A stretch of DNA of 45,163 nt. Origin: Victivallales bacterium. GTDB lineage: Bacteria > Verrucomicrobiota > Lentisphaeria > Oligosphaerales > Oligosphaeraceae. Within the stretch, counting starts at the first letter, position 1. Each line of letters begins with the position of its first letter. Where the stretch lies: assembly GCA_900769285.1 (NCBI GenBank), contig CAAGGB010000279.1:1-45163 (forward strand), in the 5' to 3' direction. The notes below the pieces were generated by a model that was not told where the DNA came from, ran no database searches, and worked only from the letters and a program-made list of their open reading frames with translations. Below, piece after piece: positions 1-36,685 of the stretch. Position numbers and translations under genes: made by a program.

Positions 1-2
1 CA

Positions 3-1739
3 CTCTGGGCACAGACCGCCCTCGAACGCCTCTCCGCCTTCATCGACTACTGCGAAAACACGTGGACAGACCACATCCTCGGATACCACTCCGGCTTCGG
101 CAACTGCGCCGAACACGTCTGGTTCTGGAACAACTACGCCGGCGACTACACCCCCGCCATGCAACGCGCCTTCCGTGACTTCCTCCGCGAACGCTACCAC
201 GACGACGACGCCCTCCGACAAGCCTGGAACGACCCCACCGCCACCCTCGACCACGCAACCACCCCGCCCCCGCAGGTCTTCGCCGGCTTCTCACCAGACT
301 CACTCCTCCATCCCCTCCGCGACCGCGCCGTCATCGACTTCTACCAGTGCCAGTGCCATCTCATGGCCAGCCTCGTCACCGAACAGGCCCGCACCGTCAA
401 GGACACCCTCCGACGACTCGGACGACAGAAGCTCTTCGGCGCCTTCTACGGCTACGTCAGCCTCCCCACCAACAGCCAGTCACACTTCGCCGTCGCCCAC
501 GACGAGCACCAGACCGTCCTCGACTGCCCCGACCTCGACTACCTCGCCGCACCCATCGCCTACCAGGCCCGACAGCCCGGCGGCGTCTGCCACGGACAGG
601 TCATGCCCGGCTCCATCCTCTGCCACGGCAAGCTCTACTACGCCGAGGACGACACCGGAACCCAGCTCTCCTCCACCCGACACAATGTCATGCCCGCCTC
701 CTTCGCGCAGACTGACGCACTCCTCCGCCGGAACTTCCTCGACGCCTGGCGCTCCGGCGGCACCCAGTGGTTCATGGACCTCTTCGGCGAGGGCTCCTTC
801 CGCTCCCCCGACCTCATGGACACCATCCGCCAGCTCACCCAGTTCGCCCAGCGACACCTCGACGACCGCCAGTCCATCGCACAGGTCGCCGTCCTCATCT
901 CCGACCGCTCCCTCTCCGTCTCCCGCACCCTCGACGTCCTCTCCGGCTCCATGCTCGAACTCCAGCTCCAGGAGGTCGCCGCCATCGGCGCACCCTTCGA
1001 CGCCTTCCGACTCGAGGACCTCCCGCAGCTCGTCAGCCAGGGGCGACTCGCCCAGTACCGGCTCGTCCTCCTCCCCAACGCACACCTCATCGCGGATCAC
1101 CTCCGTGAACTCATCGACCGCCACCTCAAGGCCGACGGCCGAACCCTCATCTGGGTCCACGCCCCCGACGTCTGGCACCACGACGGCTTCTCCACCGAAC
1201 ACGTCTGCCGCATGACCGGCATGCGTCTCGTCCCCTGCACCAGCACCTCCTCCATGCTCACCGAGACGCTCGTCATCGGACAGCGGCTCCTCTATGGCCC
1301 CCACCGCAGCGTCAGCCCACGCCTCTATGGCGCCGACCCCAACGCCGAGTCGCTCGGCTACGGCGTCGACGCCACCGCCATCCCCCTGCGCGAAGGCTCC
1401 GACGGCGCCACCCTCCTCCGCAAGACCTTCCCCACCTGGACCTCCATCTGGTCCGCCTCACCCACCCTGCCCGCCGCCCTCCTCCAGCACCTCGCCCAGG
1501 ACGCCGGCGTCCACCTCTACTCCCGACGCGGAGACCACGTCAGCGCCGCCTCGAACTGGCTCGCCGTCCACGCCAAATGGGACGGCGACCTCACCCTCCA
1601 CCTCACTCCCGAACAGGCCGCCTCCGACTGGCACAACGCCTTCACCGACGAGCCCGTCACCGTCGCGCCGGACCACACCATCACCCTCGCCCTCCGCCGA
1701 GGACAGACCGTCGCCCTCGAACGAAACCACACACCCTGA
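3..1739 (+). CDS. Putative glycoside hydrolase, GH42/beta-galactosidase-like (5'-truncated by window edge; C-terminal ~578 aa present)
   Basis: Open frame runs from the window edge to TGA at 1737-1739 with the same C-ending codon bias as neighbours. The segment MQRAFRDFLRERYHDDDALRQAWNDP resembles the F-R-x-W-L-x-x-K-Y-G-x-L-x-x-L-N-x-A-W motif that follows the catalytic barrel in GH42 beta-galactosidases. Family call is from memory of that motif only. Confidence 0.55.
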   Translation, partial: LWAQTALERLSAFIDYCENTWTDHILGYHSGFGNCAEHVWFWNNYAGDYTPAMQRAFRDFLRERYHDDDALRQAWNDPTATLDHATTPPPQVFAGFSPDSLLHPLRDRAVIDFYQCQCHLMASLVTEQARTVKDTLRRLGRQKLFGAFYGYVSLPTNSQSHFAVAHDEHQTVLDCPDLDYLAAPIAYQARQPGGVCHGQVMPGSILCHGKLYYAEDDTGTQLSSTRHNVMPASFAQTDALLRRNFLDAWRSGGTQWFMDLFGEGSFRSPDLMDTIRQLTQFAQRHLDDRQSIAQVAVLISDRSLSVSRTLDVLSGSMLELQLQEVAAIGAPFDAFRLEDLPQLVSQGRLAQYRLVLLPNAHLIADHLRELIDRHLKADGRTLIWVHAPDVWHHDGFSTEHVCRMTGMRLVPCTSTSSMLTETLVIGQRLLYGPHRSVSPRLYGADPNAESLGYGVDATAIPLREGSDGATLLRKTFPTWTSIWSASPTLPAALLQHLAQDAGVHLYSRRGDHVSAASNWLAVHAKWDGDLTLHLTPEQAASDWHNAFTDEPVTVAPDHTITLALRRGQTVALERNHTP

Positions 1740-1894
1740 CGCGCGGCACCCCAACGAACCACGCCAAATCAGCGCCGCCCGCCACGAATTCCCGCCTGGC
1801 TGCCATAGTGAAACACGCCAGCCGCATTATATTTTCCCCCTGACGTCATCCACCAGCCACAACCTCCACACCTCAGCAAGCAGAGCCATTCACC

Positions 1895-3913
1895 ATGCGC
1901 CTCCACGAGCTTTTCACCGCCATCGGCGAGCATTTTGCCGCCGGCTTCTTCCGCCACCCCAACGAGACCTACCTGGCGCGCCACGCAAACGCCCTCTCGG
2001 AGGTCCTCACCCAGGCGCCCCTCCCCGACTACCGCGGCACACGGCTCTACCCGCAGGGACGCGCCTCCATCTGGAACCCGCGCTTCGACGCCGTCTTCAC
2101 CTTCTCCTACTACTACTCCACCCGCCTCAGCCAGCCCGCCTACGAGCTCTGCCGCAAAAAGGCCGACGCCGCACACCTCACCCTCGACCCCACCCTCGAC
2201 AAGCAGCTCCGCATGGCTACCCAGGAAAAGGCCTTCACCGTCAACAACCTCCGTGGCTGGACCCACTCCGTTCTCAACTACGAGCGCATCCTCCACGACG
2301 GACTCGACCGCTACGCCGAACGACTCCAGCAAGACCTCCCATCCCATCCCAAATTCTGCGCCCCACTCCTCCAGGTCGTCCGCGCCATCCAGACCCACAT
2401 CGGACGCTGCGAGACGCTCCTCCGCAACGCCGGCGCCAACGACCTCGCCGACATCTTCGCCCAAATGGCGCACCACCCCGCCCAGAACCTCCGCCAGGCC
2501 TTCGTCTACTTCAACTACTTCTGGTTCATCGACGACCCCGACTCCGCCGGACGAATGGACGCCGTCCTCCAGCAATACCCCAACAACCTCTCCGACGACG
2601 ACATCCAGGCCCATTTCCGCGAATTCTGGCAGTCCTTCGACCTCCTCAGCGTCTGGAACGTCACCTTCGACACCCACCTGCCCTGGATGCACCACGCACT
2701 CCTCGCACAGCGCAACCTCTCCCGACCCGGCGCCTCCGCTCTCATCGACGACGACACCCCGCAGCAGGCCTGGGACGACATCTTCGACTCCTGGCTCTCC
2801 GGAAACTCCAGCCCCGCACTCTACTGCCGACCCAACTACTACCGCGGACTCAACACCCAGTGGAACGTCCGACCCGAGGACTTCCCCGGACTCTCCTACG
2901 GCGGCTGCACCGAACTCATGATCATGGGCAAGTCCAACGTCGGCTCCACCGACGGCGACCTCCACGCACTCAATGTCCTCGCCTCCACGCCCATCCTCCA
3001 CAACTCCTTCGACGACTTCTACCGACACTACCTCGACGCCCTCCGCGAAATGGCACACCAGGAGGTCGACCGCTGCCAGCTCGGACACCAGGTCGCCGCC
3101 ATGTACCAGCCCAACCTCATCCGCACCCTCTTCACCGAGGACTGCATCGACTCACACACCGAATTCAACGCCGGCGGCGCCCGCTACAACCTCGGACTCA
3201 TCGGAGTCACCGGACTCTCCAACGCCGTCAACGCCATCTACAACATCCGACTCGCCTACGAGGGACGTTTCTCCATCCACCGACTCGCCACCGCCCTCGA
3301 GGACAACTTCCAGCACGACACCGAACTCCTCGAACTCCTCAAGGCCACGCCCAAATTCGGCAACGACCACGACGACCTCGACGACCTCGCCACCCGCTTC
3401 ATCGACGACGTCTTCGCCATCGTCCGCGCCGAATCCCGCCCCGACCGCACCTACATCCCCTTCATCAACCTCTTCACCACCTACGCCGAACGCGGCTCCT
3501 ACATCCCAGCCACCGCCGACGGACGACTCGCCGGCACGCCCGTCGGCGACTCCTTCGGCGCCGTCCAGGGCACCGACCACGCCGGCCCCACCGCCCTCCT
3601 CAACTCCGTCACCAAGCCCGACCAGCAGCGCGCCCTCGGCACCCCCGTCCTCAACCTCCGACTCCAGCGCGACATGCTCGCCACCCCACAGGCGCGCGCC
3701 CTCACCAAGGCCATGCTCATGACCTACTTCAAGCGCGGCGGACTCCAGGTACAGGTCTCCGTCCTCGACGCCGAGGCCATGCGCGACGCCCTCGACCACC
3801 CCGAACGCCATCCGCACCTCATGGTCCGCATCGGCGGCTACAGCGAGTACTTCACCCGACTCTCTCGAGCCGTCCAGCTGGAGGTCATCAAACGCACCGA
3901 GCACGCGCTCTGA
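1895..3913 (+). CDS. Glycyl radical enzyme (PFL2/eliminase-type GRE), 672 aa
   Basis: The C-terminus LQVQVSVLDAEAMRDALDHPERHPHLMVRIGGYSEYFTRLSRAVQLEVIKRTEH aligns residue-by-residue with the PFL glycyl radical domain (...[50 protein letters not shown]), with the radical Gly in RIGGY. A mid-protein loop GGCTELMIMG matches the G-C-x-E thiyl-Cys plus general-base Glu loop of eliminase-class GREs. Confidence 0.85.
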   Translation: MRLHELFTAIGEHFAAGFFRHPNETYLARHANALSEVLTQAPLPDYRGTRLYPQGRASIWNPRFDAVFTFSYYYSTRLSQPAYELCRKKADAAHLTLDPTLDKQLRMATQEKAFTVNNLRGWTHSVLNYERILHDGLDRYAERLQQDLPSHPKFCAPLLQVVRAIQTHIGRCETLLRNAGANDLADIFAQMAHHPAQNLRQAFVYFNYFWFIDDPDSAGRMDAVLQQYPNNLSDDDIQAHFREFWQSFDLLSVWNVTFDTHLPWMHHALLAQRNLSRPGASALIDDDTPQQAWDDIFDSWLSGNSSPALYCRPNYYRGLNTQWNVRPEDFPGLSYGGCTELMIMGKSNVGSTDGDLHALNVLASTPILHNSFDDFYRHYLDALREMAHQEVDRCQLGHQVAAMYQPNLIRTLFTEDCIDSHTEFNAGGARYNLGLIGVTGLSNAVNAIYNIRLAYEGRFSIHRLATALEDNFQHDTELLELLKATPKFGNDHDDLDDLATRFIDDVFAIVRAESRPDRTYIPFINLFTTYAERGSYIPATADGRLAGTPVGDSFGAVQGTDHAGPTALLNSVTKPDQQRALGTPVLNLRLQRDMLATPQARALTKAMLMTYFKRGGLQVQVSVLDAEAMRDALDHPERHPHLMVRIGGYSEYFTRLSRAVQLEVIKRTEHAL

Positions 3914-3946: not shown

Positions 3947-3982
3947 CAGGACGGCCCGCCTCCTTCCGGAGACGGGCCGTCC
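3947..3982. terminator. Bidirectional hairpin between convergent genes (GRE and minus-strand membrane gene)
   Basis: Perfect 11-bp inverted repeat AGGACGGCCCG / CGGGCCGTCCT with a 14-nt loop, followed by TTGTCTG. It lies in the 119-bp gap between convergent stops at 3913 and 4033. The U-tract is weak. Confidence 0.5.
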
Positions 3983-4032
3983 TTGTCTGCCTGACCGCGC
4001 AGGCTCAGTCTGACGCCACCGCGCGGCGCGGC

Positions 4033-5196
4033 TCACGCCCCTCGCCAAGCGTGAAGGGCGCCTCCCACCAGCGCCGTGAACGGCGCCACCAGCACCAGCC
4101 CGAAGCTGCCCACCAGCGTCTTGACGCACTCCGCGGCCACATACGGGTTGTTGATGATGTCGCCCAGCCCCGTCCCCTGCGCCGCGAACACCATCAGCAG
4201 CGTCAGGTAGCCGCCCGAATACGCCAGCAGCAGCGTGGTCGTCATCGTGCCCACCACACTCTGTCCAATGCGCAGGCCGGACAGCGTCAGATCACGGCCG
4301 GAAATGCCCGGACGATGCCACGCCACCTCCTCCATGCCCGCCGCCACATCCATGCCCAAATCCATGACCGCGCCCGACGAGGCCAGGATGATGGCCCCCG
4401 CAAACAGCGCCTGCAGGTCGAGTCCCTCATAGCCCGAGTAGAGCAGCGCCGGCGCATACGGCATCCCCGCCGCGCTCACATGGAACAGCACCGTGAACAC
4501 CTCCGCCAGCGCACAGCCCGCCAGCACACCCAGCATCGAGCCCAGAAACGCCACCACGCCCTTGCGCGTCAGCCCCGCGACCAGAAAGATGATGACCGCC
4601 GTCAGCAGACACACGCACGCCACCGACACCGCCAGCGGCGAATGGCCGCGCAGACACAGCGGCACCACCAGCTTCCACACCGCCACGCAACTGAACACAA
4701 ACGACACCAGCGCCTTCAGCCCCGTCACCCCCGCGAACGCCAGCAGCAGCACGCAGAACAGACCGAACAGCAGCGCCGTCCAGCCCAGACGGTAGTGGTC
4801 CTGCGCCTGTATCACCGTCACGCCCGGCTCCGCGCCGTGCAGCATCGCCACCCACACCGCATCGCCGGGGACGAACATCTTGTCCAAATCCAACTGCGCC
4901 CGCAGCTCGTTGGCCGCGGGGAAGCGCTGGCCGGCATGGCGTCCTGTCCGCACCTCGACCTCGAGGCGCTGCGTGCCCATCAGCATCAGCCCCATGCGCT
5001 CCACGCCGCTGTCGTCCACCGACAGCACCACGGCACGCTCCTTCGTGCCCGGCTCCGGGTCGCGCGCCGGCATCAGCTCCAGCCGCGACAGCGCCACGCA
5101 CAGCAGCAGGAAGACCACGCAGGCCAGCCAGTCGCCACGGCGGCCGAGCAGCGTCCGCCGCCAGCCGCCGCCTCGCTCGTCCGTCAGACGGCTCAT
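4033..5196 (-). CDS. Polytopic membrane protein, possibly YibE/F family
   Basis: The ATG at 5196-5194 overlaps the stop of the upstream phoA-like gene (ATGA). The product has an N-terminal TM, a ~120-aa extracytoplasmic segment, then about 7 hydrophobic helices. The architecture resembles YibE/F-like proteins; the family assignment is tentative. Confidence 0.6.
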   Translation of the reverse strand: MSRLTDERGGGWRRTLLGRRGDWLACVVFLLLCVALSRLELMPARDPEPGTKERAVVLSVDDSGVERMGLMLMGTQRLEVEVRTGRHAGQRFPAANELRAQLDLDKMFVPGDAVWVAMLHGAEPGVTVIQAQDHYRLGWTALLFGLFCVLLLAFAGVTGLKALVSFVFSCVAVWKLVVPLCLRGHSPLAVSVACVCLLTAVIIFLVAGLTRKGVVAFLGSMLGVLAGCALAEVFTVLFHVSAAGMPYAPALLYSGYEGLDLQALFAGAIILASSGAVMDLGMDVAAGMEEVAWHRPGISGRDLTLSGLRIGQSVVGTMTTTLLLAYSGGYLTLLMVFAAQGTGLGDIINNPYVAAECVKTLVGSFGLVLVAPFTALVGGALHAWRGA

Positions 5197-6578
5197 CGCG
5201 CCAGCAGTTGCTTGAGAGTCACCGCGATGTGCGTGTTCTCGTAGTCGCCGGCGAAGCGCTCGGAGCCGACGCCATAGGCGGTGGTGATGACGGGCAACGC
5301 GCTGTGGCCGCCCGAGTGCCACACCGCGCCGCACTTGTTGTTGAACAGCTTGAGGCCGGCCAGCTTGAGCGCGTCCATGCCCTTCTTGGCCTTCCATGCG
5401 GCCACGCTCGCCTCATAGGCCTTCCGCAGCGACTCCAGCTCGGCCTCCTGCACGGCCAGCGGCCCCTTGCCACCGAAATCCAGCCCGAAGACGCGCTGCA
5501 GCGCCGGGATGCCGCAGGTCTCGAAGCTCGCCTGCTCGCCCGCGTTCCGAAGCTGCTCGCGCAGCACGCTGTTGAAGCGGTCGACGGAGCAGCTCTGACG
5601 CGCCAGCAGCTCCAGACGCTCCTCGTAGCCCGTGTTGGCGAAGCCCAGCGTCAGCGCGCCCGTCTCATGGTCGCCGGTGACGACGATGAGCGTCTCGTCG
5701 GGATGACGCTGCGCGAACTCGTAGGCCACCTTGACCGCCTTGTCAAGAGCCAGCGACTCGTGGACGGAGCCGGCCGCGTCGTTGGCATGGCCGCGCCAGT
5801 CGATGGCGCCGCCCTCGCACATCAGGAAGAACCCCTTGGGGTTGTCGAGCAGCTCGATGCCCTTGGCGACAAACTCATGCAGCTCGATGGTCTGGCTGTC
5901 GCGGTCGATGGCGGGCGGCAGCGCGCCGTTCGCGCCGCGGGCGAAGACCTTGCCCACTCCGGGGGCCAGCCGCTCAAACTCCTCGCGGGTGGAGGTCACG
6001 GTGTACCCGGCCTGCTTCGCCAGCTCGTAGATGTCGCCCTTGTAGGCGGGGTTCTTGCTGTCGTCGTTCTTGGCGCAGCCGCCGCCCGCGAAGTAGTCGA
6101 AGTTCGACGCGACGAGGTCCAGCCCCAGCTCGTAGTACTGTGAACGGTTCGGACGGTGGCCGTAGAACGCCGACGGCGTGGCGTGGTTGATCGTCACGCT
6201 CGTCACGATGCCAACCCTGCGCCCCGCGCGCTGCGCCACGTACGCCATGGACTCCAGCGGACGCTTGCCGTCCGGAGCCAGCCCGATGATGCCGTTGTTC
6301 GTCTTCTCGCCGCAGGCGATGGCCGTCCCCGAGGCCGCCGAGTCCGTGATCAGCGCGTTCGCCGAGCTCGTGCGCGTGCTCGCCCGAACCGGCAGGTGGT
6401 TGATGAGCAGCTGCTGACCCTCTCCCGCCGTCCGCTTCAGGAACGACTCCGCCAGCGTCCGCTGCGGCAGCGACATCCCGTCGCCAATGAACAGAAACAC
6501 ATACTTGGGGCTGTCCGCGCCCAGCGCGAGCACACACAGCAGACACCACACAGCAAGAATTCTCAGACGGCTTGACAT
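5193..6578 (-). CDS. phoA: Alkaline phosphatase (PhoA family), secreted
   Basis: Signal peptide MSSRLRILAVWCLLCVLALGA. Active-site motif DSAASGTA (Ser nucleophile) is present, together with IGDGMS, VTGDHETG and HSGGHSALPV metal-ligand motifs. The start was chosen at the internal Met of ORF 5193..6683, at the signal peptide. Confidence 0.9.
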   Translation of the reverse strand: MSSRLRILAVWCLLCVLALGADSPKYVFLFIGDGMSLPQRTLAESFLKRTAGEGQQLLINHLPVRASTRTSSANALITDSAASGTAIACGEKTNNGIIGLAPDGKRPLESMAYVAQRAGRRVGIVTSVTINHATPSAFYGHRPNRSQYYELGLDLVASNFDYFAGGGCAKNDDSKNPAYKGDIYELAKQAGYTVTSTREEFERLAPGVGKVFARGANGALPPAIDRDSQTIELHEFVAKGIELLDNPKGFFLMCEGGAIDWRGHANDAAGSVHESLALDKAVKVAYEFAQRHPDETLIVVTGDHETGALTLGFANTGYEERLELLARQSCSVDRFNSVLREQLRNAGEQASFETCGIPALQRVFGLDFGGKGPLAVQEAELESLRKAYEASVAAWKAKKGMDALKLAGLKLFNNKCGAVWHSGGHSALPVITTAYGVGSERFAGDYENTHIAVTLKQLLAR

Positions 6579-6739
6579 GAAAAACACCTTGACGTTCTTC
6601 CTTCTCGGAACAGGACTGTGGCCCGGCGGCCCATGGCCGCGTCGCACATCAACCAATATAGCCGAAGGCCCGCCGCCAGTCAACGCCGCCCGCCCCTTTT
6701 CCCGTTGCCACTCCGTTAGTCTCGCGTTATATTATCGGC

Positions 6740-6935
6740 AACGGACATTGACCTATCTGAGCTTCGCCTGTGTGAAGCACAAGGGAATCCAGTGAGAATC
6801 TGGAGCAGTCGCGCTACTGTGAGCGGGTACTGGAACGCTAGCCCCCAAGGGGGCGACAGGGGTCACTGGAGCCGTCCGGACGCAGCCTCGTCTGCGCCAC
6901 GGCCGCTCCGGGAAGGCTCTGCGCTCCGGGCTTGA
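6740..6935 (+). promoter_or_regulatory. Cobalamin (B12) riboswitch-like leader upstream of the TonB-dependent receptor
   Basis: AAGGGAATCCAGTGAGAATCTGGAGCAGTCGCGCTACTGTGAGCGGG matches the conserved core of cobalamin riboswitches (AAGGGAA..GGTGAAAATCC...CCCGC.RCTGT). The B12-box-like GTCACTGGA is downstream. It sits in the 490-bp leader of a btuB-type receptor gene. Confidence 0.65.
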
Positions 6936-7067
6936 ACCCGTGTAGTCAGGATATCTTGTACTGAGTTGCCGGTCCCCGCGTCAGGGACACGGCAGCACTG
7001 TCCCATGCCGACGCCAACCCGTCGGCGGCTCAGATGCAACCCAACCCCAAAAGAAAGGAACACGCAG

Positions 7068-9062
7068 ATGAGCAGACAGCACGCACTGCGGGCCCTCGGG
7101 CTCGCGGCTCTCGCCTCACGCCTCGCATGGGCACAGAGCCAACCACCACAGGCACCTCAGCCCGAGTCCGACGAACAGACCGCCGAACTCAAACCCATCG
7201 TCGTCCTCGCCGCCAAGACCGGAGCCCTCCAGACCTCCCTCGGACAGACCGTCGACATCGTCACCCGTGAGCAGCTCGACGTCGCCGGGTACCAGACCGT
7301 CACCGACGCACTCCGCGACCTCGCCGGCGTCGACTTCCGCTCCTACGGCCCCAACGACTCCGGCTCCGCCGCCATCAGCATCCGCGGCATGAGACCCTAC
7401 CACACACGCGTCCTCATCGACGGCATCCCCATCCACGACCAGTCCTCAACCCAGATGGGACCCGTCCTCGGCGGACTCCCGCTCAACGGCATCGACCGCA
7501 TCGAGGTCGTCAAGGGTCCCTCCAGCCTCCAGGGCTCCAGCGCCATGGGCGGCGTCATCAACATCGTCACCCGACGACCCGCCGAGGACGGACTCCACGG
7601 AACCGTCCAACAGGAGCTCGGCAGCCATGGCCGCGCCACCACCGGACTCCAGCTCCTCGGAAAGCACGGCCCCGTCGACTACCGACTCGACATCGGCAGA
7701 ACACGCGAACGCGGCATCTCCGCCGTCTACCGCGACACCAACGGCAAAATCAACCTCGACGACGACCACTACCGCGCCATGGTCTACGACGGACGCATCG
7801 GACTCCAGCTCGACGACCACTGGCGCGCCGAACTCTTCGGACGCTTCCAGGACATCGACGAGGAATACGACGACGGCTACGCCTACGGCGACTTCGTCTC
7901 GCCCGACACGGACGATGTCCTCGTCCGCCGCGCCATGGGCGGCGCCCTCCTCAAGGGCGACGGACTCCTCGACGGACTCCTCGACCTCTCCCTACAGGCC
8001 GCCGCCACCCGCGCCGACCGCATCTACCACACCCTCGCCGGACGTCAAGCCTCGCGCTACACCGGCGACCACCGCGAGGCTGAGCTCAAGGGCACCCTCC
8101 ACCTCACCGAATGGCTCGACCTCACCCTCGGAACCCAGTTCGAGGAGGACCAGATGCGCCGCTGCGCCACCGGCAAGCACCGCGACATGAACCGCACCCA
8201 CCGCACCGCCTCCTACTACCTCGGACTCCAGGCCGAACCCGTCGAGAACCTCGTCCTCAACCTCAACGGACGACTCGTCGACCACTCCGAATTCGGCGCC
8301 GAGCTCGTCGGCGACGCCTCCGTCCGCTACCTCGTCGCCAAGACCGGCACCACCCTCCGCGCCAGCGCCGGACGCGGCTACCGCACGCCCTCCCTCGACG
8401 AGCTCTACAACAACTACTCCTCCATGGGCTACCTCGTCCGCGGCAACCCCGACCTCGACCCCGAGACCAGCCTCTCCTGGGAGGCCGGCATCGAGCAGGA
8501 CCTCATCGGCAAGACCCTCCGCGCCGGCACCGCCTACTTCGAGAACCGCATCGACGACTACATCTCCACCGTCTCCGCCTACGACCCGAACACCTGGACC
8601 ACCGTCGCCACCTACGAGCAAATCAAGGGCGTCACCATCCGCGGACTCGAGAGCTTCATCGCCTGGGAGCCCATCCGCGACCAGCTCACCGTCCGACTCA
8701 CCCACACCTATCAGCGCGTCCGCAACGATGAGAACAGCAACCGCTTCCTCGCCTTCATCCCCAGGCAGAAGCTCGGCGCCGACCTCACCTTCCGCTGCCT
8801 CGCCGACAACGCCCTCGCCCTCAACCTCGGCGGCGTCTTCGTCGGCTCCCGCTGGAACAGCGACAACAAGACCAGCCGCGAGAAGCTCGACGACTACATC
8901 CTCCTCCACGCCGCCGCCTCCTACAAGCTCACCAAGCAACTGGAGCTCTCCTTCCGCATCGCCAACCTCCTCAACACCCGCTACACCGACATCAGCGGCT
9001 ACGGCACCATCTACGGCACCTACGGCCGAACCTACTACGCCGGCATCGCCTACACCTTCTGA
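7068..9062 (+). CDS. TonB-dependent outer-membrane receptor (BtuB-like, by context)
   Basis: Signal peptide, TonB-box-like ELKPIVVLAAK, plug-domain motifs (IEVVKGPSSLQGSSAMGGVINIVTR) and a C-terminal aromatic residue (...AGIAYTF). RBS AAAGGAA precedes the ATG at 7068. Confidence 0.9.
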   Translation: MSRQHALRALGLAALASRLAWAQSQPPQAPQPESDEQTAELKPIVVLAAKTGALQTSLGQTVDIVTREQLDVAGYQTVTDALRDLAGVDFRSYGPNDSGSAAISIRGMRPYHTRVLIDGIPIHDQSSTQMGPVLGGLPLNGIDRIEVVKGPSSLQGSSAMGGVINIVTRRPAEDGLHGTVQQELGSHGRATTGLQLLGKHGPVDYRLDIGRTRERGISAVYRDTNGKINLDDDHYRAMVYDGRIGLQLDDHWRAELFGRFQDIDEEYDDGYAYGDFVSPDTDDVLVRRAMGGALLKGDGLLDGLLDLSLQAAATRADRIYHTLAGRQASRYTGDHREAELKGTLHLTEWLDLTLGTQFEEDQMRRCATGKHRDMNRTHRTASYYLGLQAEPVENLVLNLNGRLVDHSEFGAELVGDASVRYLVAKTGTTLRASAGRGYRTPSLDELYNNYSSMGYLVRGNPDLDPETSLSWEAGIEQDLIGKTLRAGTAYFENRIDDYISTVSAYDPNTWTTVATYEQIKGVTIRGLESFIAWEPIRDQLTVRLTHTYQRVRNDENSNRFLAFIPRQKLGADLTFRCLADNALALNLGGVFVGSRWNSDNKTSREKLDDYILLHAAASYKLTKQLELSFRIANLLNTRYTDISGYGTIYGTYGRTYYAGIAYTF

Positions 9063-9091: not shown

Positions 9092-10012
9092 ATGAACAGC
9101 ACCCGAAGCCACCTCTCACTCGCAGCGGCAGCCCGACTCCTGCTCCTGCTGGCCGTCGCGCTCACCGGTGGCTGCGCACCCCATGCGCAGCCACCCACAC
9201 AGCCCACCGCCGAGCGCATCATCTCGCTCGCGCCCTCCCTCACCGAAACCCTCTTCGCCCTCGGACTCGGAGACCGACTCGTCGCCGACACCCAGTACTG
9301 CGTCACCCCCGAGGCCGCCAAGGCCCTCCCTAAGGTCGGAGCCTGGAACGACGCCAGCGCCGAGCAGCTCCTCGCCCTCAAGCCCACCGCCGTCTGCCTC
9401 GCCGACACCCACCCACAGCGCGAACGACTCGCCGCCGCCGGACTCCCGCTCGTGCCCGTCCGCGGACAGACCCTCGCCGACGCGATCGCCGCCGTCCTCA
9501 CCCTCGGACAGGCCTTCGGACGACAGGCCGACGCGGAACGGCTCCACGCCAGCCTCCTCGACAGCCAGGAGACCCTCCGCCAGAGCCAGGCCGGCCTCCC
9601 ACGCCTCCGCCTCCTCGTCGTCATCTCCCGCACACGGGGCGAGGGACGCCTCCGCGACCTCATCGTCGCCGGCGACGACGGCTACTTCCGCCAACTCGCC
9701 GAACTCCTCCACTGCGACCTCGTGCCCACCGGCACCGGCGCCGCATACCCCGCCGTCAGCGCCGAGGGCATCCTCGCCATCAACCCCGACGCCATCGTCG
9801 AAATCGCCCCCGAATGGGAGCCCAGAGGCGAGCCCGGACGCGAACAGCTCGCACAGGAATGGCGACAGGCACTCCCCACCCTCAAGGCCGCACAGCCCGG
9901 ACGCATCCTCGTCTTCACCGAAAACGACGCCACCGTCCCCGGACTGCGAACCATCGCCTTCGCCAGACGACTCGCCGACCAACTGCGAACCCTCCGCACA
10001 CCCATGCCATGA
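9092..10012 (+). CDS. Periplasmic substrate-binding lipoprotein, BtuF/FecB (class III, TroA-like) family
   Basis: Lipoprotein-type signal (..LAVALTGGC). ERIISLAPSLTETLFALGLGDRLVADTQYC is the hallmark N-terminal motif of BtuF/siderophore-binding proteins. Its stop overlaps the next start (ATGA at 10009-10012). Confidence 0.8.
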   Translation: MNSTRSHLSLAAAARLLLLLAVALTGGCAPHAQPPTQPTAERIISLAPSLTETLFALGLGDRLVADTQYCVTPEAAKALPKVGAWNDASAEQLLALKPTAVCLADTHPQRERLAAAGLPLVPVRGQTLADAIAAVLTLGQAFGRQADAERLHASLLDSQETLRQSQAGLPRLRLLVVISRTRGEGRLRDLIVAGDDGYFRQLAELLHCDLVPTGTGAAYPAVSAEGILAINPDAIVEIAPEWEPRGEPGREQLAQEWRQALPTLKAAQPGRILVFTENDATVPGLRTIAFARRLADQLRTLRTPMP

Positions 10013-17683: not shown

Positions 17684-17860
17684 TTAGTCCTCCAGCTTGA
17701 TGGCCTCGCAGGGGCAGGCGTCCACGCAGGCGCCGCAGCCAACGCAGGTGTCCTTGTCGACAACAGCCTTGTCATCAACGATCTTGATGGCCTCGACGGG
17801 GCAGCCATCGACGCAGGTACCGCAGCCGGCGCACTTCTCTTTATCAACAACAGCAGCCAT
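17684..17860 (-). CDS. Ferredoxin, 2x[4Fe-4S] (57 aa)
   Basis: Two CxxCxxCxxxCP motifs (CAGCGTCVDGCP and CVGCGACVDACP). The start MAAVV at 17860 is preceded by GAGGAAAAG 6 nt upstream. The longer ORF 17684..18085 was rejected because its N-terminus is Arg/Gly-rich off-pattern sequence. Confidence 0.85.
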   Translation of the reverse strand: MAAVVDKEKCAGCGTCVDGCPVEAIKIVDDKAVVDKDTCVGCGACVDACPCEAIKLED

Positions 17861-32676: not shown

Positions 32677-34614
32677 ATGAACCTGCTGTTGGCACTGTTC
32701 AGGTACTTCCCCGGAGGCGGCCTCCAGAACGACACGCTACGCTTTGCCGAGGAGGCGGCGCGGCGTGGACATCACGTCACCATCCTCTGCACCGCCTGGG
32801 AAGGCGAACGGCCCAAGAAAATCGAGGTCGTCATGCGCCCCATCCGCGCCTGGACCAACCATGGTGCCATGGAGCGTTTCGCACGACTCGTCACCGACTA
32901 CCGGCTGACCCATACCGTCGATGTCTCCCTCGCCATGAACCGTATCCCCGGCTGCGACGCCTACTTCGTGGCCGACTCATGCATGGCAGCTTATCTGCCC
33001 TGCAGCCACTCCCGTGCCGTTCTTGCTTGTCTGCCCCGTTACCATGCCATCCTGCATCAAGAAGCACTTGTCTGCTCTCCCCACGCCCATACCCAACTCC
33101 TCTATATAGCTCAACAGCAGCTTCACGACTACAGCCGTGTCTACCATCTGCCTTCAGCCCGCCTAGCCTACTTGCCTCCAGGCATGGATGAACGCTGCCA
33201 ACTCCTGACGGACACCTCCATCCGCCAGGATATTCGTGCTAAATTGAGCTTGAATAAGGAAACCTGCGCCGTGATTCTGATCGGAACAAACCTACACCGA
33301 AAGGGCGTGGATCGGGCACTTCGCGCTCTGGCCAGTCTGCCCGATGACACCCCCGCACACTTTTTTCTGGTCGGTATGGACAAGCCAGCCAACGTCGCCA
33401 AACTCGCCACCATGACGGGTGTTGATCGCGCACACTTCACCTTTCTGGGAGCGCGCCGAGATGTCCCCGACCTGCTCCATGCCATGGACCTGATGCTTCA
33501 CCCAGCCCGAGAGGAGGGCACCGGCACCGTCCTGGTCGAGGCCATCGCCTCCGGACTGCCCGTCATCTGCAGTGAGGTGTGTGGCTTCGCCAGCTTTGTC
33601 CGCGAGGCCACCGACACGGTCATCCCGGCCCCCTTCCACCAACAGGAGCTCAATAGCCTGCTCGCCCAGTCCATCCGACGTCTCGCCGAACTGAAGCGCC
33701 AGACCAGACAGTATGCCGCCACGCAGGACTTCACAGCACGCTCCCGAGTCGCTATCGATAGACTGGAGACACTCGCCCAAGCCCGCCAACAGCTTAATCT
33801 GGCTGTGCTCTGTCCTGCCCCCGCCACGCCCCCCTTCAGTTCGCTGCCACCTGAACTGACCGATGTCTGCCAGACGGACAATACCATCTGGACAACCCTC
33901 CACGGCCTTCCCATCGACCTCCTCAATCGTCTGCCCGACCTCCACGACCAATGCGCCACAGAAAGGCGTCTGCTCCTGGATACGCCTACGCTTCGTGTCA
34001 GCAGAGTGACGCTGGAGGGTATGTCGCTCCTGGTCAGGGAGTATCACGGCGATCGGCGACCTGCCTGGCTCAGCCCTGCCTGGCGCACGTGGAAAACCCT
34101 TCAGTCCATCCGGGGACTTGCCGTGCCCTGCCTAGCCCTCGCCGAACAGCGACACCGACGTCTCCTCGTCCTCGCCGACCCAGGCGTCGACAGCCTGGCT
34201 GATGCGACCACTCACCCAAATCTCCCCGACCTCCTCCTCGCCGCTGGCTCCCTGCTCGCCACCCTCCATGAACGTGGCGTCTTCCTGCGTCACGCTGCTG
34301 CCGACCACTTTGTCCTCAACGAGCTTTGCCCTTGGATGCCCTCGCCCCTCCTTCTCGCCGACGGCGGTAACCTCCGGAAGAGCCGCTGGCTGTCCCGCCG
34401 ACACCGCGTCCGAAACCTCGCCCAACTGCTCGCCTCCCTGAAAAGACTTCCAGACGATGCCTCACACCAAGTGGCAAAAGGCTACCAGCTCGCCGCCAAC
34501 CTCGATGACCAGCAGATGCAGGCACTTCTGGAAGAGGTCGCAGCATCTACGGAAAAGCACTTCCAAGATTGCCTCAGTACGTTTTCGCAGATGACACAGG
34601 AAGACCATGAATAA
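32677..34614 (+). CDS. WaaG(RfaG)-like GT4 glycosyltransferase fused to a C-terminal lipopolysaccharide-kinase (Kdo/WaaP/InaA)-like domain
   Basis: The N-terminus MNLLLALFRYFPGGGLQNDTLRFAEEAARRGHHVTI matches the WaaG start (..YKYFPFGGLQRDF..). The GT-B E-x7-E motif EEGTGTVLVEAIASGLPVICS is present. The C-terminal ~270 aa contains LHERGVFLRHAAADHFVLNE, resembling the LPS-kinase catalytic loop but with substitutions. Confidence 0.75.
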   Translation: MNLLLALFRYFPGGGLQNDTLRFAEEAARRGHHVTILCTAWEGERPKKIEVVMRPIRAWTNHGAMERFARLVTDYRLTHTVDVSLAMNRIPGCDAYFVADSCMAAYLPCSHSRAVLACLPRYHAILHQEALVCSPHAHTQLLYIAQQQLHDYSRVYHLPSARLAYLPPGMDERCQLLTDTSIRQDIRAKLSLNKETCAVILIGTNLHRKGVDRALRALASLPDDTPAHFFLVGMDKPANVAKLATMTGVDRAHFTFLGARRDVPDLLHAMDLMLHPAREEGTGTVLVEAIASGLPVICSEVCGFASFVREATDTVIPAPFHQQELNSLLAQSIRRLAELKRQTRQYAATQDFTARSRVAIDRLETLAQARQQLNLAVLCPAPATPPFSSLPPELTDVCQTDNTIWTTLHGLPIDLLNRLPDLHDQCATERRLLLDTPTLRVSRVTLEGMSLLVREYHGDRRPAWLSPAWRTWKTLQSIRGLAVPCLALAEQRHRRLLVLADPGVDSLADATTHPNLPDLLLAAGSLLATLHERGVFLRHAAADHFVLNELCPWMPSPLLLADGGNLRKSRWLSRRHRVRNLAQLLASLKRLPDDASHQVAKGYQLAANLDDQQMQALLEEVAASTEKHFQDCLSTFSQMTQEDHE

Positions 34615-35563
34615 CCACATTGATATGGTGTACCTTTGGGTAGATGGCTCTGACCCAGTATGGCTGGCCAAGAAGGAGCAATATCTCCACCAGGCAGACC
34701 GCCAGGAACACCAGTTGGCGGTTCCTGAACGCTGGCAGGACAACGATGAGCTGCGCTTCTCCCTGCGCAGTGTAGAGCAGTTTGCCCCCTGGATACATCA
34801 TATCTTCCTGGTAACGGACGGCCAATGTCCGTCCTGGCTACGACGTGACCATCCAAAACTGACACTGATAGACCATCGCGAGTTTATTCCCAAGGACTAC
34901 CTGCCTGTGTTTTGTGCGGATGCCATAGAATCCTTTCTTCCTCTGATACCTAACCTCTCTGAGCGTTTTTTATTTGCCAATGACGATATGTTCTTTGGAC
35001 GAGAAATCTCCCCCAACCGGTTCTTCGATTCCAAAGGTGATCCACTGGTGCAGGTCAAGCACCTTTATGACCATGATTTCTGCCAAGATTCAGAACTGAC
35101 GACACGCCTGCTGCAGGATTGCCACTACGCTTCGCGCGCACGGGCTAATGTCATGGTCTCCAAACTGTTTGGCCATCCCATGAACTGGGAAGGCGGACAT
35201 GTCATAGACCCCTGTCGCAAATCTTATATGCAGGAAGCCTTGGCAGAGCCCGCGTTCGCGGAGGCATGGGAAACCACCCGAAGGCACCGGTTCCGCTCCC
35301 CTGAAGCAGTCCAGCGAATTCTCTTCCCCCTCTATGACGCCTGCAAAGGACGCACCAGACTGCTGAGCGTGCATCGCTTCAAGGAGTGGAAAAGGCTTTT
35401 CTGTCCCTGGAGAATTCCCTACTACCTGTGTAGCGTGAAGGATCTGCAAAAAGTCATGAGCATTCGGCCAGAAATGTTCTGCTACTATGTTGGCGACTAC
35501 TATGCTGAACTGCGCCAGTTCTTCCATGCGTATTTTCCTAAGAAATCTAGTTTTGAAAAATAA
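34607..35563 (+). CDS. Stealth-family hexose-1-phosphoryltransferase (capsule/glycan phosphotransferase)
   Basis: Stealth CR1 DMVYLWVDGSDPVW and CR2 DELRFSLRSVEQFAPWIHHIFLVTDGQCPSWL. The start overlaps the upstream stop by 8 nt. Confidence 0.85.
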   Translation: MNNHIDMVYLWVDGSDPVWLAKKEQYLHQADRQEHQLAVPERWQDNDELRFSLRSVEQFAPWIHHIFLVTDGQCPSWLRRDHPKLTLIDHREFIPKDYLPVFCADAIESFLPLIPNLSERFLFANDDMFFGREISPNRFFDSKGDPLVQVKHLYDHDFCQDSELTTRLLQDCHYASRARANVMVSKLFGHPMNWEGGHVIDPCRKSYMQEALAEPAFAEAWETTRRHRFRSPEAVQRILFPLYDACKGRTRLLSVHRFKEWKRLFCPWRIPYYLCSVKDLQKVMSIRPEMFCYYVGDYYAELRQFFHAYFPKKSSFEK

Positions 35564-35575
35564 TTGGAGAAGACT

Positions 35576-36505
35576 ATGTCCATCAACATCGCTGTATCCT
35601 CAGACAGGACGTTCATCACGTGCACATGCGTCACGATTGCCTCCATTCTTCATTATCATCCCCATGACATCCATTTTTTTCTGCTGCACGAACATCTCAC
35701 GGCAACAGACTGGCGCCCCATGGAACAGACTATCTCAAGGATGGGACGAAATTGTACCTTCACCCCCGTATCCGTTGGGGAAAACAATTGGGAAGGCTTT
35801 CCAACAGGTAGAAATCTTCCTTTGGCGACATATTATAGACTAAACTTACCTGCATTATTACCTCAAATAGAAAAGATTATTTATTTAGATGGCGATATTG
35901 TGATGGCTGATGATATCCAAGAAGTTTGGGAAATGAATATAAATAGCTATTCACTTGCTGCCATTTCAATACAAAGCGTAAGTAGCATATATCCTGAATT
36001 GATAGGTAAAAATACATTTAATGCAGGTTTTTTAGTAATGAATATGAAACGAATAAGAGAAACTGGAGCACTGGAAAGAATCCATGAAATAGCAACCAAT
36101 TTCAAGGATAAGCTTAATCTTTTTGATCAAGACATTCTGAATTTAGTATTTTGTGATGAAACCTTACGACTTCCAGTGCGATGGAACCTGACGACAGGTG
36201 CCCTGCTGCGCTCGGATGCGAACTACAGCACGATTCCCGAGGAGGAACTGTGCGAAGCCATTCGGCATCCTGCGGTCATTCATTTTACCACCTCTGCGAA
36301 ACCATGGAAGCTAAAAGCAAAAATCAGGCATCCCTTCTCATCGCTCTATACGTTCTTCGCCAAGCTGGCGCAGACACCTTGGAGTTTCCGCCTAGTGCTC
36401 TTTCTGAAATTTACCTTGAAGCTGAATCGACGCTTCCGCTATAGCCCCTGGATACTGGAGCATCTTGACGAAATTCAGCAGACCATCAAGCGCCTTACCC
36501 GATAA
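35576..36505 (+). CDS. Glycosyltransferase family 8 (LPS alpha-1,3-galactosyl/glucosyltransferase-like, WaaJ/WaaI type)
   Basis: NIAVSSDRTFI, YYRLNLPALLPQIEKIIYLDGDIVMADD (DxD), NAGFLVMNMKRIRE and FDQDILNLVF. GGAG RBS is 6 nt upstream of the ATG at 35576. Confidence 0.85.
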   Translation: MSINIAVSSDRTFITCTCVTIASILHYHPHDIHFFLLHEHLTATDWRPMEQTISRMGRNCTFTPVSVGENNWEGFPTGRNLPLATYYRLNLPALLPQIEKIIYLDGDIVMADDIQEVWEMNINSYSLAAISIQSVSSIYPELIGKNTFNAGFLVMNMKRIRETGALERIHEIATNFKDKLNLFDQDILNLVFCDETLRLPVRWNLTTGALLRSDANYSTIPEEELCEAIRHPAVIHFTTSAKPWKLKAKIRHPFSSLYTFFAKLAQTPWSFRLVLFLKFTLKLNRRFRYSPWILEHLDEIQQTIKRLTR

Positions 36506-36685
36506 TGAGAGTAGGAGAGCATTCATGCTCCCCGATTCAGATAATAAATGCGCAGGTGCGTCTGTCCCGCCAGATTCTTATCGTCGAATGAACAAGCGCA
36601 TATAACGACCTGAAGCACCTCAACAGCCACCATCAAGACCTTTGAATATGCACTGTTTTCCCCACCACAGACCAAGCCTCCTATC

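What the first reader, a model, noticed from the sequence alone, without database searches (positions are those of the whole stretch)
1895..3913. Unusually short glycyl radical enzyme with Cys-x-Glu loop and no activating enzyme nearby
The glycyl radical domain is unmistakable: it aligns with PFL across ~50 residues around RIGGY. The GGCTE loop indicates an eliminase/dehydratase-class GRE. At 672 aa it is about 100-200 aa shorter than characterised GREs (PFL, glycerol dehydratase, HypD, CutC). No GRE-activating radical SAM gene (CxxxCxxC) lies within the window. Its only close neighbour, 156 bp upstream and on the same strand, is a GH42-like glycosidase gene. The substrate could therefore be a sugar-derived compound.
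Basis: partly seen in the sequence, partly recalled or inferred. Interest (0 to 1): 0.6.

Follow-up and report, generated by a model that had tools for sequence, protein, structure and literature searches.

The report
Compact glycyl radical enzyme, uncharacterised clade
The gene is a real, intact glycyl radical enzyme from a widespread but unstudied group of naturally short versions of this enzyme type, so its small size and missing activator gene are normal for the group; what it acts on is still unknown.

Summary
ORF 1895-3913 (+) encodes an intact 672-aa glycyl radical enzyme (GRE). It has the Gly loop (R645-I-G-G648-Y), the Cys-x-Glu loop (C338-T-E340) and the histidine equivalent to His164 of glycerol dehydratase. 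The AlphaFold model (pLDDT 93) superposes on GRE dehydratases at TM 0.84.

The short length is not truncation. Homologues of 620-730 aa align end to end. At least 592 loci in species-representative genomes encode relatives, mostly MAGs of Victivallales/Lentisphaerota, Armatimonadota and rumen Clostridia. dN/dS against a 95%-identical orthologue is 0.18. The missing roughly 100 aa are an N-terminal trim plus seven loop deletions.

No curated NCBIfam model reaches its cut-off and no characterised member was found.

No activase lies in the window, nor in 8 kb further upstream in a 93%-identical relative. This is common in the family: only 23 of 67 well-flanked members have an adjacent activase. 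The nearest clade with an informative context (39-42% identity) has IclR-GRE-activase-Fe-ADH operons.

The upstream neighbour does have a GH42 fold. It ends a co-directional SDR / galactonate dehydratase / GDPD cluster, but this adjacency is seen only in very close relatives.

Verdict: a new, compact variant of a known enzyme kind, most likely a C-O eliminase or isomerase activated in trans. Substrate unknown. Moderate interest.

The parts
1895..3913 (+). CDS of the compact glycyl radical enzyme (672 aa, ATG start, TGA stop)
   Evidence: ORF. Pfam PFL-like plus Gly_radical. Full-length homologues with the same N-terminus. dN/dS 0.18 against L006. AlphaFold pLDDT 93.1.
2255..2269 (+). G121-W-T-H124-S motif. 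H124 is the counterpart of glycerol dehydratase His164, the proposed proton donor to the leaving hydroxyl.
   Evidence: H124 invariant in 38 sequences. Aligned with GD H164 in the profile-PDB alignment. Role of His164 taken from PMC13450708.
2900..2914 (+). Cys loop G336-G-C338-T-E340 (CXE motif: thiyl-radical cysteine and general-base glutamate)
   Evidence: Invariant. Aligned with GD Cys433/Glu435 and with the PflD GCVE motif.
3557..3856 (+). Glycyl radical domain (residues 555-654)
   Evidence: Pfam PF01228, E 9e-21. Also matches the GrcA-type spare glycyl radical cofactors.
3827..3841 (+). Gly loop R645-I-G-G648-Y649; G648 is the predicted radical site
   Evidence: Read directly from the translation. 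The fingerprint RVxG[FWY]x6-8[FL]x4Qx2[IV]x2R from PMC13450708 is matched apart from V to I: R645, G648, Y649, L656, Q661, V664, R667. R645, G647 and G648 are invariant.
1740..1894 (+). 155-nt spacer between the GH42-like gene and the GRE. It contains a block of about 45 nt (about 1801-1844, ...GTGAAACACGCCAGCCGCATTATATTT...) that is conserved in the L006 relative while the rest of the spacer has diverged. Candidate own promoter or operator (inference).
   Evidence: Spacer alignment window vs L006. The block is unique in the window. No sigma-70 consensus match and no Rfam match.
3948..3983 (.). Perfect 16-bp-stem hairpin (12 G-C pairs, 4-nt loop) between the convergent GRE and YibE/F genes. 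Likely a transcription stop for one or both (inference; no U tract on the + strand).
1..1739 (+). 3' part (578 codons) of the upstream GH42-fold glycosidase-like gene. It is cut off by the window start; the full length is 714-716 aa in relatives.
   Evidence: Reading frame open from base 3. Orthologues. Profile vs GH42 structures 1.5e-11. Model pLDDT 91.8 and Foldseek GH42 hit 1.4e-24. E173 and E351 invariant, E173 aligned with the GH42 'NE' acid/base motif.

Best explanation
The ORF encodes a functional member of an uncharacterised, naturally compact clade (620-730 aa) of glycyl radical enzymes. The clade belongs to the PFL2-type 'CXE' branch, which holds the 1,2-eliminases and isomerases.

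Proposed mechanism. The steps are inferred from the conserved catalytic residues; none was shown experimentally here.
1. A separate radical-SAM activase, encoded elsewhere in the genome, abstracts a hydrogen from G648 to install the glycyl radical.
2. The radical passes to C338.
3. The thiyl radical abstracts a hydrogen from a carbon bearing a hydroxyl.
4. E340 deprotonates that hydroxyl. H124, the counterpart of GD His164, protonates the neighbouring leaving group.
5. A C-O bond is cleaved, either by dehydration or by ring-opening isomerisation, giving a carbonyl product.

The substrate is probably a small polyol or sugar-derived molecule, but it is not glycerol bound in the way glycerol dehydratase binds it. 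The loops that carry most of GD's other substrate contacts are deleted in this family.

The compactness comes from an N-terminal trim of about 30 aa and several loop deletions. It does not come from truncation.
For: Shown by tool results:
- Domains, motifs and invariant catalytic residues.
- A high-confidence model with the GRE barrel fold: TM 0.84 to 1r8w, 5i2g, CutC, PflD and HypD at 17-20% identity.
- The family profile is best matched by glycerol dehydratase (1.5e-101), then propanediol dehydratase and PflD. hhalign to E. coli PflD gives 1e-62.
- The clade is large and its members are full length.
- Purifying selection: dN/dS 0.18.
- 23 of 67 members with at least 2.5 kb on both flanks have an activase within 2.5 kb (adjacent in 26 of the first 89 loci), so the family does use GRE activases.
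- The most similar clade with an informative context (39-42% identity; it groups with the window clade in an NJ tree) has IclR-GRE-(GRE)-activase-Fe-ADH. From my own knowledge, this is the gene order of Clostridium butyricum dhaB1-dhaB2-dhaT.
- Neighbours elsewhere in the family are AraC regulators, Gfo/Idh/MocA and SDR oxidoreductases.
- In a relative with 93% identical DNA, the GRE closes a co-directional run of SDR, galactonate dehydratase (330 bits against a cut-off of 311), GDPD, an unknown 614-aa protein and the GH42-like gene.
Against: - No activase lies from about -10 kb (seen in the relative L106) to +41 kb of the gene. None lies beside any of the 10 loci of the window's own clade at 57-100% identity. 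Activation in this lineage is therefore assumed, not shown.
- No aldehyde- or alcohol-dehydrogenase partner is in the window.
- All curated NCBIfam GRE models score far below their cut-offs, the best being 172 bits against 678.
- Of the GD substrate contacts I recall (N156, H164, H281, S282, Y339, D447, Y640), only H164 has a conserved counterpart. H281/S282 and Y339 fall in segments that are absent here. D447 aligns with T352 and Y640 with N525.
- The window clade differs from the rest of the family at 9 otherwise conserved positions, two of them (G355D, N357H) just after the Cys loop. Its substrate may therefore differ from that of the sister clade.
- The tree is a rough NJ tree without support values.
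Confidence: 0.7

Rival explanations
1. It is specifically a compact B12-independent glycerol or 1,2-diol dehydratase. The diol would be released nearby, for example glycerol from galactosyl-glycerol or glycerophosphodiesters through the GH42-like and GDPD genes. It would be dehydrated to an aldehyde that an alcohol dehydrogenase encoded elsewhere then reduces.
For: GD and PD are the top profile and fold matches. E340 and H124, the GD acid/base pair, are invariant. The sister clade has the GRE-activase-Fe-ADH order. GDPD and a GH42-fold enzyme lie just upstream in the same species.
Against: The GD substrate-contact loops are deleted or substituted. The TIGR01774 score is far below its cut-off. 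All solved CXE GREs are about equally distant at 17-20% identity. There is no ADH, aldehyde dehydrogenase or microcompartment gene in the window. The gene cluster is seen only within one species-level group.
Confidence: 0.2
2. It is a sugar or sugar-phosphate ring-opening isomerase of the PflD/YbiW type, acting on a product of the upstream glycoside and sugar-acid genes.
For: E. coli PflD is the best single-sequence PDB hit at 2e-37. The CXE motif and the His are shared with the isomerases. The 'GGARYN' motif is identical to that of PflD. A GH42-like gene and a galactonate dehydratase lie upstream.
Against: In the NJ tree E. coli PflD and YbiW group with canonical-length paralogues, outside the compact clade. 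NF007437 scores 144 bits against a cut-off of 1109. No PTS, kinase or aldolase genes are adjacent. The adjacency is not conserved beyond close relatives.
Confidence: 0.1
3. It is a non-activated relic, or has been re-purposed as a non-radical protein, in a lineage that has lost its activase.
For: No activase was found at any of the 10 loci of the 57-100% clade or in about 51 kb around the gene. In the 57% clade the gene is instead tightly coupled, with a 4-nt gap, to a MoxR AAA+ gene.
Against: Every family-invariant residue is retained, including G648, C338 and E340. dN/dS is 0.18. Two thirds of family members lack an adjacent activase anyway. From general knowledge, GRE activases are often encoded apart from the GRE and shared between GREs.
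Confidence: 0.06
4. It is a truncated ORF created by an assembly error or frameshift, or a mis-called start, in an ordinary GRE of about 780 aa.
For: Only the short length itself.
Against: The same length and the same N-terminus recur in hundreds of independent assemblies. The model is compact and confident throughout. The shortfall is spread over an N-terminal trim and seven internal sites rather than being a terminal loss. The upstream 155 nt are non-coding and follow the stop codon of another gene.
Confidence: 0.01

Closest known systems
B12-independent glycerol dehydratase DhaB1 (C. butyricum, PDB 1r8w) and 1,2-propanediol dehydratase (5i2g)
   Same: Best profile match (1.5e-101) and best fold match (TM 0.84). 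Shares the Gly loop, the CXE Cys loop and the His164 equivalent. The sister clade has the GRE-activase-Fe-ADH gene order.
   Different: 17-20% identity. About 115 aa shorter. The loops carrying GD H281/S282 and Y339 are absent, and the D447 and Y640 equivalents are substituted. TIGR01774 scores 172 bits against a cut-off of 678. No activase or ADH is next to the window gene.
PflD / YbiW (1,5-anhydro-hexitol-6-phosphate isomerases, PDB 8yjo, 8id0, 8id7)
   Same: Best single-sequence PDB hit (2e-37). Shares CXE, the His and the GGARYN motif. These enzymes are the precedent for sugar-derived GRE substrates.
   Different: hhalign covers only residues 120 to the end. The E. coli enzymes fall outside the compact clade in the NJ tree. 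No PTS or aldolase context. The equivalog model scores far below its cut-off.
YjjI / DUF3029 (E. coli, 516 aa), the other known 'short' GRE-like family
   Same: Shorter than canonical GREs. A few 660-aa members of the compact clade weakly touch PF11230 and TIGR04040.
   Different: The window protein has no TIGR04040 hit. The hhalign match is weak and partial (E 3e-7), against 1e-62 to PflD.
Pyruvate formate-lyase (PflB), the name databases give to family members
   Same: Same superfamily and the same glycyl radical domain.
   Different: It has a single Cys rather than the Cys-Cys pair that only PFL and TdcE carry (PMC13450708). TIGR01255 scores 53 bits against a cut-off of 994. The labels 'formate C-acetyltransferase' and 'IMP dehydrogenase' on relatives are not supported.

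Membership tests
Glycyl radical enzyme superfamily | C-terminal glycyl radical domain with the fingerprint RVxG[FWY]x6-8[FL]x4Qx2[IV]x2R | tested here: met
   PF01228 at E 9e-21. R645-I-G-G648-Y649 ... L656 ... Q661 .. V664 .. R667, with only V to I at position 2 (fingerprint from PMC13450708).
Glycyl radical enzyme superfamily | Catalytic cysteine on a Cys loop inside a 10-stranded beta/alpha barrel | tested here: met
   C338 is invariant and aligns with GD Cys433. The predicted fold superposes on GRE structures at TM 0.84, with model pLDDT 93. The structure is predicted, not experimental.
Glycyl radical enzyme superfamily | Cognate radical-SAM activating enzyme | tested here: inconclusive
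   None in the 45-kb window, nor in 8 kb further upstream in a relative with 93% identical DNA. The rest of the genome could not be searched. 23 of 67 family members have an adjacent activase.
Glycyl radical enzyme superfamily | Formation of a stable glycyl radical | not testable with these tools
   Needs EPR on activated protein.
CXE-class GREs (1,2-eliminases and isomerases) | Cys-x-Glu on the Cys loop, with the Glu hydrogen-bonding a substrate hydroxyl | tested here: met
   C338-T-E340 is invariant and aligns with GD C433/E435. Substrate contact itself could not be tested.
B12-independent glycerol dehydratase (DhaB1) | Score above the curated family cut-off (TIGR01774 PFL2-3 subfamily) | tested here: not met
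   172 bits against a cut-off of 678. All 38 aligned members are below the cut-off.
B12-independent glycerol dehydratase (DhaB1) | Glycerol-binding residues besides Cys/Glu (His164; and, from my memory of the GD structure papers, N156, H281, S282, Y339, D447, Y640) | tested here: not met
   Only His164 (H124 here) is conserved. H281/S282 and Y339 lie in GD segments that are absent here. D447 aligns with T352 and Y640 with N525. This rests on sequence alignment only.
Pyruvate formate-lyase (formate C-acetyltransferase) | Two adjacent cysteines on the Cys loop, and the TIGR01255 cut-off | tested here: not met
   Single Cys in GGCTE. 53 bits against a cut-off of 994.
YjjI / DUF3029 | Match to TIGR04040 / PF11230 | tested here: not met
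   The window protein has no hit. hhalign to E. coli YjjI gives only 3e-7 over scattered segments.
PflD/YbiW anhydro-hexitol-phosphate isomerases | Equivalog model score, and a PTS / aldolase gene context | tested here: not met
   NF007437 scores 144 bits against a cut-off of 1109. No PTS or aldolase genes nearby. Outside the PflD/YbiW group in the NJ tree.
GH42 glycoside hydrolases (upstream neighbour) | Three-domain GH42 fold with two catalytic glutamates | tested here: met
   Foldseek hit to GH42 structures at 1.4e-24, TM 0.60-0.66. Profile hit at 1.5e-11. Invariant E173 aligns with the 'NE' acid/base motif, and E351 is also invariant. The single-sequence Pfam score is below the cut-off, so this is a remote GH42-like family. 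Activity was not tested.

The most novel reading that the evidence does not exclude
The compact clade may catalyse a GRE reaction that has not yet been described, on a glycan-derived metabolite; here that metabolite would be linked to a galactoside / galactonate / glycerophosphodiester cluster. It would use a minimal scaffold that lacks the first N-terminal helix and several active-site loops of canonical GREs. That scaffold might have a different oligomeric state, or a non-canonical maturation partner, as hinted by the tightly coupled MoxR AAA+ gene in the 57% clade and the absence of an activase at every locus of this lineage.
Probability: 0.15. Interest if true: 0.7.

Novelty: new variant of a known kind. 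Interest (0 to 1): 0.4.

Why it matters
GREs carry out chemically difficult anaerobic reactions, and each newly assigned clade has revealed a new piece of gut or sediment metabolism: choline, hydroxyproline, isethionate and anhydroglucitol are examples. This gene marks a large clade, with at least 592 loci in species-representative genomes. Its members come almost entirely from uncultured Lentisphaerota, Armatimonadota, rumen Clostridia and similar groups. The clade has no curated model, no characterised member and misleading database names. It is also the smallest full GRE scaffold apart from YjjI, which makes it attractive for defining the minimal GRE core and for enzyme discovery. For this particular locus, the apparent anomalies (short length, orphan status) are explained as family traits.

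Tried and rejected
- YjjI/DUF3029 relationship: rejected. hhalign gives 3e-7 against 1e-62 for PflD, and there is no TIGR04040 hit.
- Truncation, frameshift or wrong start: rejected.
- Hidden activase: the only hit of tblastn and the activase HMM in the window is a small ferredoxin.
- Scan of JGI metagenome contigs for close relatives: found a single locus at 42% identity.
- AFDB fold search: the library was unavailable.
- Riboswitch or other known RNA in the GRE leader: none. No sigma-70-like promoter match either.
- Pfam on extra neighbours in the sister clade: returned only regulators and unannotated large proteins, with no clue to the substrate.
- Literature searches (DUF3029, YjjI, Victivallales, GRE sequence-similarity networks): nothing on this clade, and the 2026 GRE review does not mention it.
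Residue mapping rests on sequence alignments.
Full report
OBSERVATION

The ORF at 1895-3913 (+) exists as described and encodes 672 aa. Pfam finds PFL-like (1.9e-39) and Gly_radical (9e-21, residues 555-654). The C-terminus reads R645-I-G-G648-Y649-SEYFTR-L656-SRAV-Q661-LE-V664-IK-R667. This fits the published GRE fingerprint RVxG[FWY]x6-8[FL]x4Qx2[IV]x2R except for V to I (fingerprint from PMC13450708). The Cys loop is G336-G-C338-T-E340. Solved GRE chains are 759-897 aa long, so the protein is about 90-225 aa shorter than any characterised GRE.

The whole window holds no activase:
- No long ORF carries a Radical_SAM domain.
- No ORF carrying CxxxCxxC looks like an activase.
- Thirty activase sequences, used both in tblastn and as an HMM, hit only a 58-aa 2x[4Fe-4S] ferredoxin at about 17687-17860 on the minus strand.

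The upstream gene ends at 1739, leaving a 155-nt gap.

THE SHORT LENGTH IS A FAMILY TRAIT

A search of the 5.8-billion-protein collection returned 364 relatives. The best 120 are nearly all 618-730 aa and cover 98-100% of the query. They stand at 95%, 77% and 57% identity, followed by a continuum from 42% to 31%.

An alignment of 38 members starts at the same N-terminus. It has 54 invariant columns, including E12, H124, D213, D216, D222, W254, R277, P278, GGCTE 336-340, R410, C417, G428, R430, D542-G-R544, R645, G647 and G648.

Almost all come from MAGs of Victivallales/Lentisphaerota, Armatimonadota, Clostridia/Oscillospiraceae of ruminants, Omnitrophota, Chloroflexota, Kiritimatiellota, Latescibacterota and Treponema. 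The best of these is only 39% identical, so the window's own lineage is not among the representatives.

The exact window protein is in the collection. A mate in the same 90%-identity cluster is labelled 'pyruvate formate lyase family protein [Oligosphaeraceae bacterium]'.

Against the 95%-identical orthologue (L006), dN/dS is 0.18. The ORF is therefore intact and under selection, and is neither truncated nor mis-started.

WHERE THE MISSING RESIDUES ARE

The family profile aligns to glycerol dehydratase (GD, 1r8w) from profile position 48 to GD residue 82, and onward to the C-terminus. GD carries about 34 extra N-terminal residues. It also has internal insertions of 3, 6, 10, 5, 23, 2 and 13 residues.

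The AlphaFold model built on the 38-sequence alignment is confident throughout (pLDDT 93.1, pTM 0.91). It superposes on every solved CXE-type GRE (GD, PD, CutC, HypD, HplG, PflD, YbiW, HpsG, IseG) with a query-normalised TM of 0.80-0.85 at 15-20% identity; GD is first at 1.7e-35.

According to the 2026 review, the N-terminal helices of GREs form the conserved dimer interface. The trimmed N-terminus may therefore affect oligomerisation. This is an inference.

WHICH KIND OF GRE

- Profile-profile comparison gives 1e-62 to E. coli PflD, but only 3e-7, in scattered segments, to E. coli YjjI. The clade is therefore not YjjI/DUF3029, although four members weakly touch TIGR04040.
- Every NCBIfam GRE model hits every member, but far below the curated cut-offs. 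The best for the window protein is TIGR01774 at 172 bits against a cut-off of 678.
- It is not a PFL. It has a single Cys, and TIGR01255 scores 53 bits against 994.
- C338/E340 align with GD Cys433/Glu435, and H124 aligns with GD His164.
- In the current GD mechanism, Glu435 deprotonates C1-OH and His164 protonates the leaving C2-OH (PMC13450708).
- The same review stresses that CXE is shared by C-O, C-N and C-S eliminases and by the isomerases HplG, YbiW and PflD. The motif alone therefore does not mean 'dehydratase'.
- Of the other GD substrate contacts I recall (from memory, not verified here), H281/S282 and Y339 lie in GD segments missing from this family. D447 aligns with T352 and Y640 with N525. 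The pocket is therefore not that of GD.
- In a rough NJ tree, E. coli PflD and YbiW group with canonical-length paralogues, outside the compact clade.

GENOMIC CONTEXT ACROSS THE FAMILY

I clustered all ORFs from 89 loci and re-scored them with HMMs.
- A GRE activase of about 300 aa with CxxxCxxC is adjacent in 26 of the 89 loci. Among family GREs with at least 2.5 kb on both flanks, 23 of 67 have one within 2.5 kb. An 'orphan' GRE is therefore the majority state.
- Other recurrent neighbours are divergent AraC regulators (about 27 loci, mostly Clostridia), Gfo/Idh/MocA oxidoreductases (11), Fe-ADH (10), IclR (8), SDR (6) and ABC exporters.
- Tandem paralogues are common. L052 has four copies and L010 three.
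- The clade most similar to the window protein outside its own lineage (39-42% identity; L094, L004/5, L007-9, L010) always shows IclR-GRE-(GRE)-activase-Fe-ADH. It groups with the window clade in the NJ tree.
- This order matches C. butyricum dhaB1-dhaB2-dhaT (my own knowledge). It argues for a carbonyl product that is then reduced.

CONTEXT OF THE WINDOW'S OWN LINEAGE

None of the 10 loci at 57-100% identity has an activase, ADH or IclR nearby. The 57% group is always MoxR(AAA_3)-GRE, with a 4-nt gap, followed by nusA-infB-rbfA-truB-ribF.

A relative with about 93% identical DNA (L106) extends 8.1 kb beyond the window start. It shows a co-directional, tightly spaced run:
MatE, MurJ, SDR, galactonate dehydratase (NF010624, 330 bits, above the cut-off of 311), glycerophosphodiester phosphodiesterase, an unannotated 614-aa protein, the GH42-like gene, then 155-158 nt, then the GRE.

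No activase is present there.

The spacer before the GRE is the largest gap in the run. It contains a block of about 45 nt (1801-1844, with ATTATATTT) that is conserved between the window and L006 while the rest of the spacer has diverged. This may be a dedicated promoter or operator, which is an inference. It matches neither the sigma-70 consensus nor any Rfam family. A 16-bp-stem hairpin at 3948-3983 follows the gene.

THE UPSTREAM NEIGHBOUR

The gene is cut off by the window start. Alone, it fails Pfam (GH42 at 15 bits against a cut-off of 21) and the PDB sequence search. Its family profile, however, hits GH42 beta-galactosidases at 1.5e-11, with invariant E173 aligned on the 'NE' acid/base motif. 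A confident model of its 89%-identical orthologue (pLDDT 91.8) matches the whole three-domain GH42 architecture at 1.4e-24 and TM 0.60-0.66. 'GH42-like' is therefore right.

In relatives at about 50% identity, though, this gene is the last gene of an AraC / 182-aa / prepilin-like / 1316-aa operon, with no GRE downstream. The functional link to the GRE is therefore suggestive only.

MECHANISM AND CONFIDENCE

- What is shown: an intact, selected, full-fold GRE of the CXE class, in a large uncharacterised compact clade whose members are often, but not always, encoded next to activases.
- What is inferred: activation in trans at G648; radical transfer to C338; hydrogen abstraction from a hydroxylated carbon; E340/H124-assisted C-O cleavage to a carbonyl product; and a small sugar-derived or polyol substrate.
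- I put 0.7 on this general statement.
- Within it, I put about 0.2 on a true glycerol or diol dehydratase and about 0.1 on a PflD-like isomerase.
- A non-activated relic gets about 0.06, and an artefact about 0.01.
- The window clade differs from the rest of the family at nine otherwise conserved positions (for example N279G, G355D, N357H, N437G) and at the GD-Y640 position (N525 rather than Ile). Its substrate need not be that of the sister clade.

NOVELTY

I found no curated model and no characterised member. The held literature does not mention the clade, and neither does the 2026 GRE review. Database names such as 'formate C-acetyltransferase' and 'IMP dehydrogenase' are unsupported.

It is a new compact variant of a known enzyme kind. 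It is a worthwhile target for enzyme discovery but not a surprise to a specialist, since many GRE clusters remain unassigned. The two features that drew attention, short length and no activase, are ordinary within the clade. Interest 0.4.

Noticed in passing
window 1-34000 (whole + strand); also L006, L106: Extreme compositional strand asymmetry. GC is 0.65 with GC skew about -0.35. Third codon positions have GC 0.89 and GC skew -0.68 in + strand genes, but +0.33 to -0.19 on the coding strand of - strand genes. This implies both a C-ending codon preference and a very strong strand bias, with most genes on the C-rich strand. Relatives at 57% protein identity show only -0.12 to -0.16.
   Followed up: partly
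window 6748-6971 (+): Cobalamin riboswitch (RF00174, 48.7 bits against a gathering score of 31.5). It lies directly ahead of a TonB-dependent receptor (6966-9062), a BtuF-like periplasmic binding protein (9092-10012) and, in the relative L106, an ABC ATPase. This looks like a B12-uptake locus, 3 kb from a B12-independent radical enzyme.
   Followed up: no
window ~17687-17860 (-): A small (about 58 aa) clostridial-type 2x[4Fe-4S] ferredoxin gene. It is the only sequence in the window that resembles part of a GRE activase (the ferredoxin insert).
   Followed up: yes
window 34600-38000: A low-GC island (GC 0.47-0.52 against 0.65 elsewhere). It carries a Stealth-family gene (34607-35563) and a GT8 glycosyltransferase (35564-36505, GC 0.43), with a BspA-type LRR / Big_2 surface protein next to it (36686-39868). 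It is probably a horizontally acquired surface-glycan module.
   Followed up: no
L106 3021-9843 (about 8 kb upstream of the window start, in a relative with 93% identical DNA): A co-directional cluster of SDR, galactonate dehydratase (above the NCBIfam cut-off), glycerophosphodiester phosphodiesterase, an unannotated 614-aa protein with no Pfam, NCBIfam or PDB match, and the GH42-like gene. The cluster ends at the GRE.
   Followed up: partly
L001, L095-L099 (GREs 57% identical to the window protein): A MoxR-type AAA+ ATPase gene (AAA_3) ends 4 nt before the GRE start at every locus of this clade, and the nusA-infB operon follows. A chaperone-like ATPase coupled to a GRE is unexplained.
   Followed up: no
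L052, L010, L004, L038, L029: Tandem arrays of two to four compact-GRE paralogues, sometimes mixed with a canonical-length GRE. They usually share a single activase or have none nearby.
   Followed up: partly
window 3948-3983: A perfect 16-bp-stem, 4-nt-loop hairpin between the convergent GRE and YibE/F genes, without a clear T tract on the + strand.
   Followed up: partly
window 4033-5397 (-) and 5193-6683 (-): The mechanical ORFs for the YibE/F-like protein and the alkaline phosphatase overlap by about 200 nt. In relatives the YibE/F product is called at 387 aa rather than 454, so the long N-terminal extension in the window ORF is probably not translated.
   Followed up: partly
P0010: A 589-aa fragment 60% identical to the window GRE is named 'IMP dehydrogenase, partial [Victivallales bacterium]' in NCBI. 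This is probably a mis-annotation or a chimeric call.
   Followed up: no
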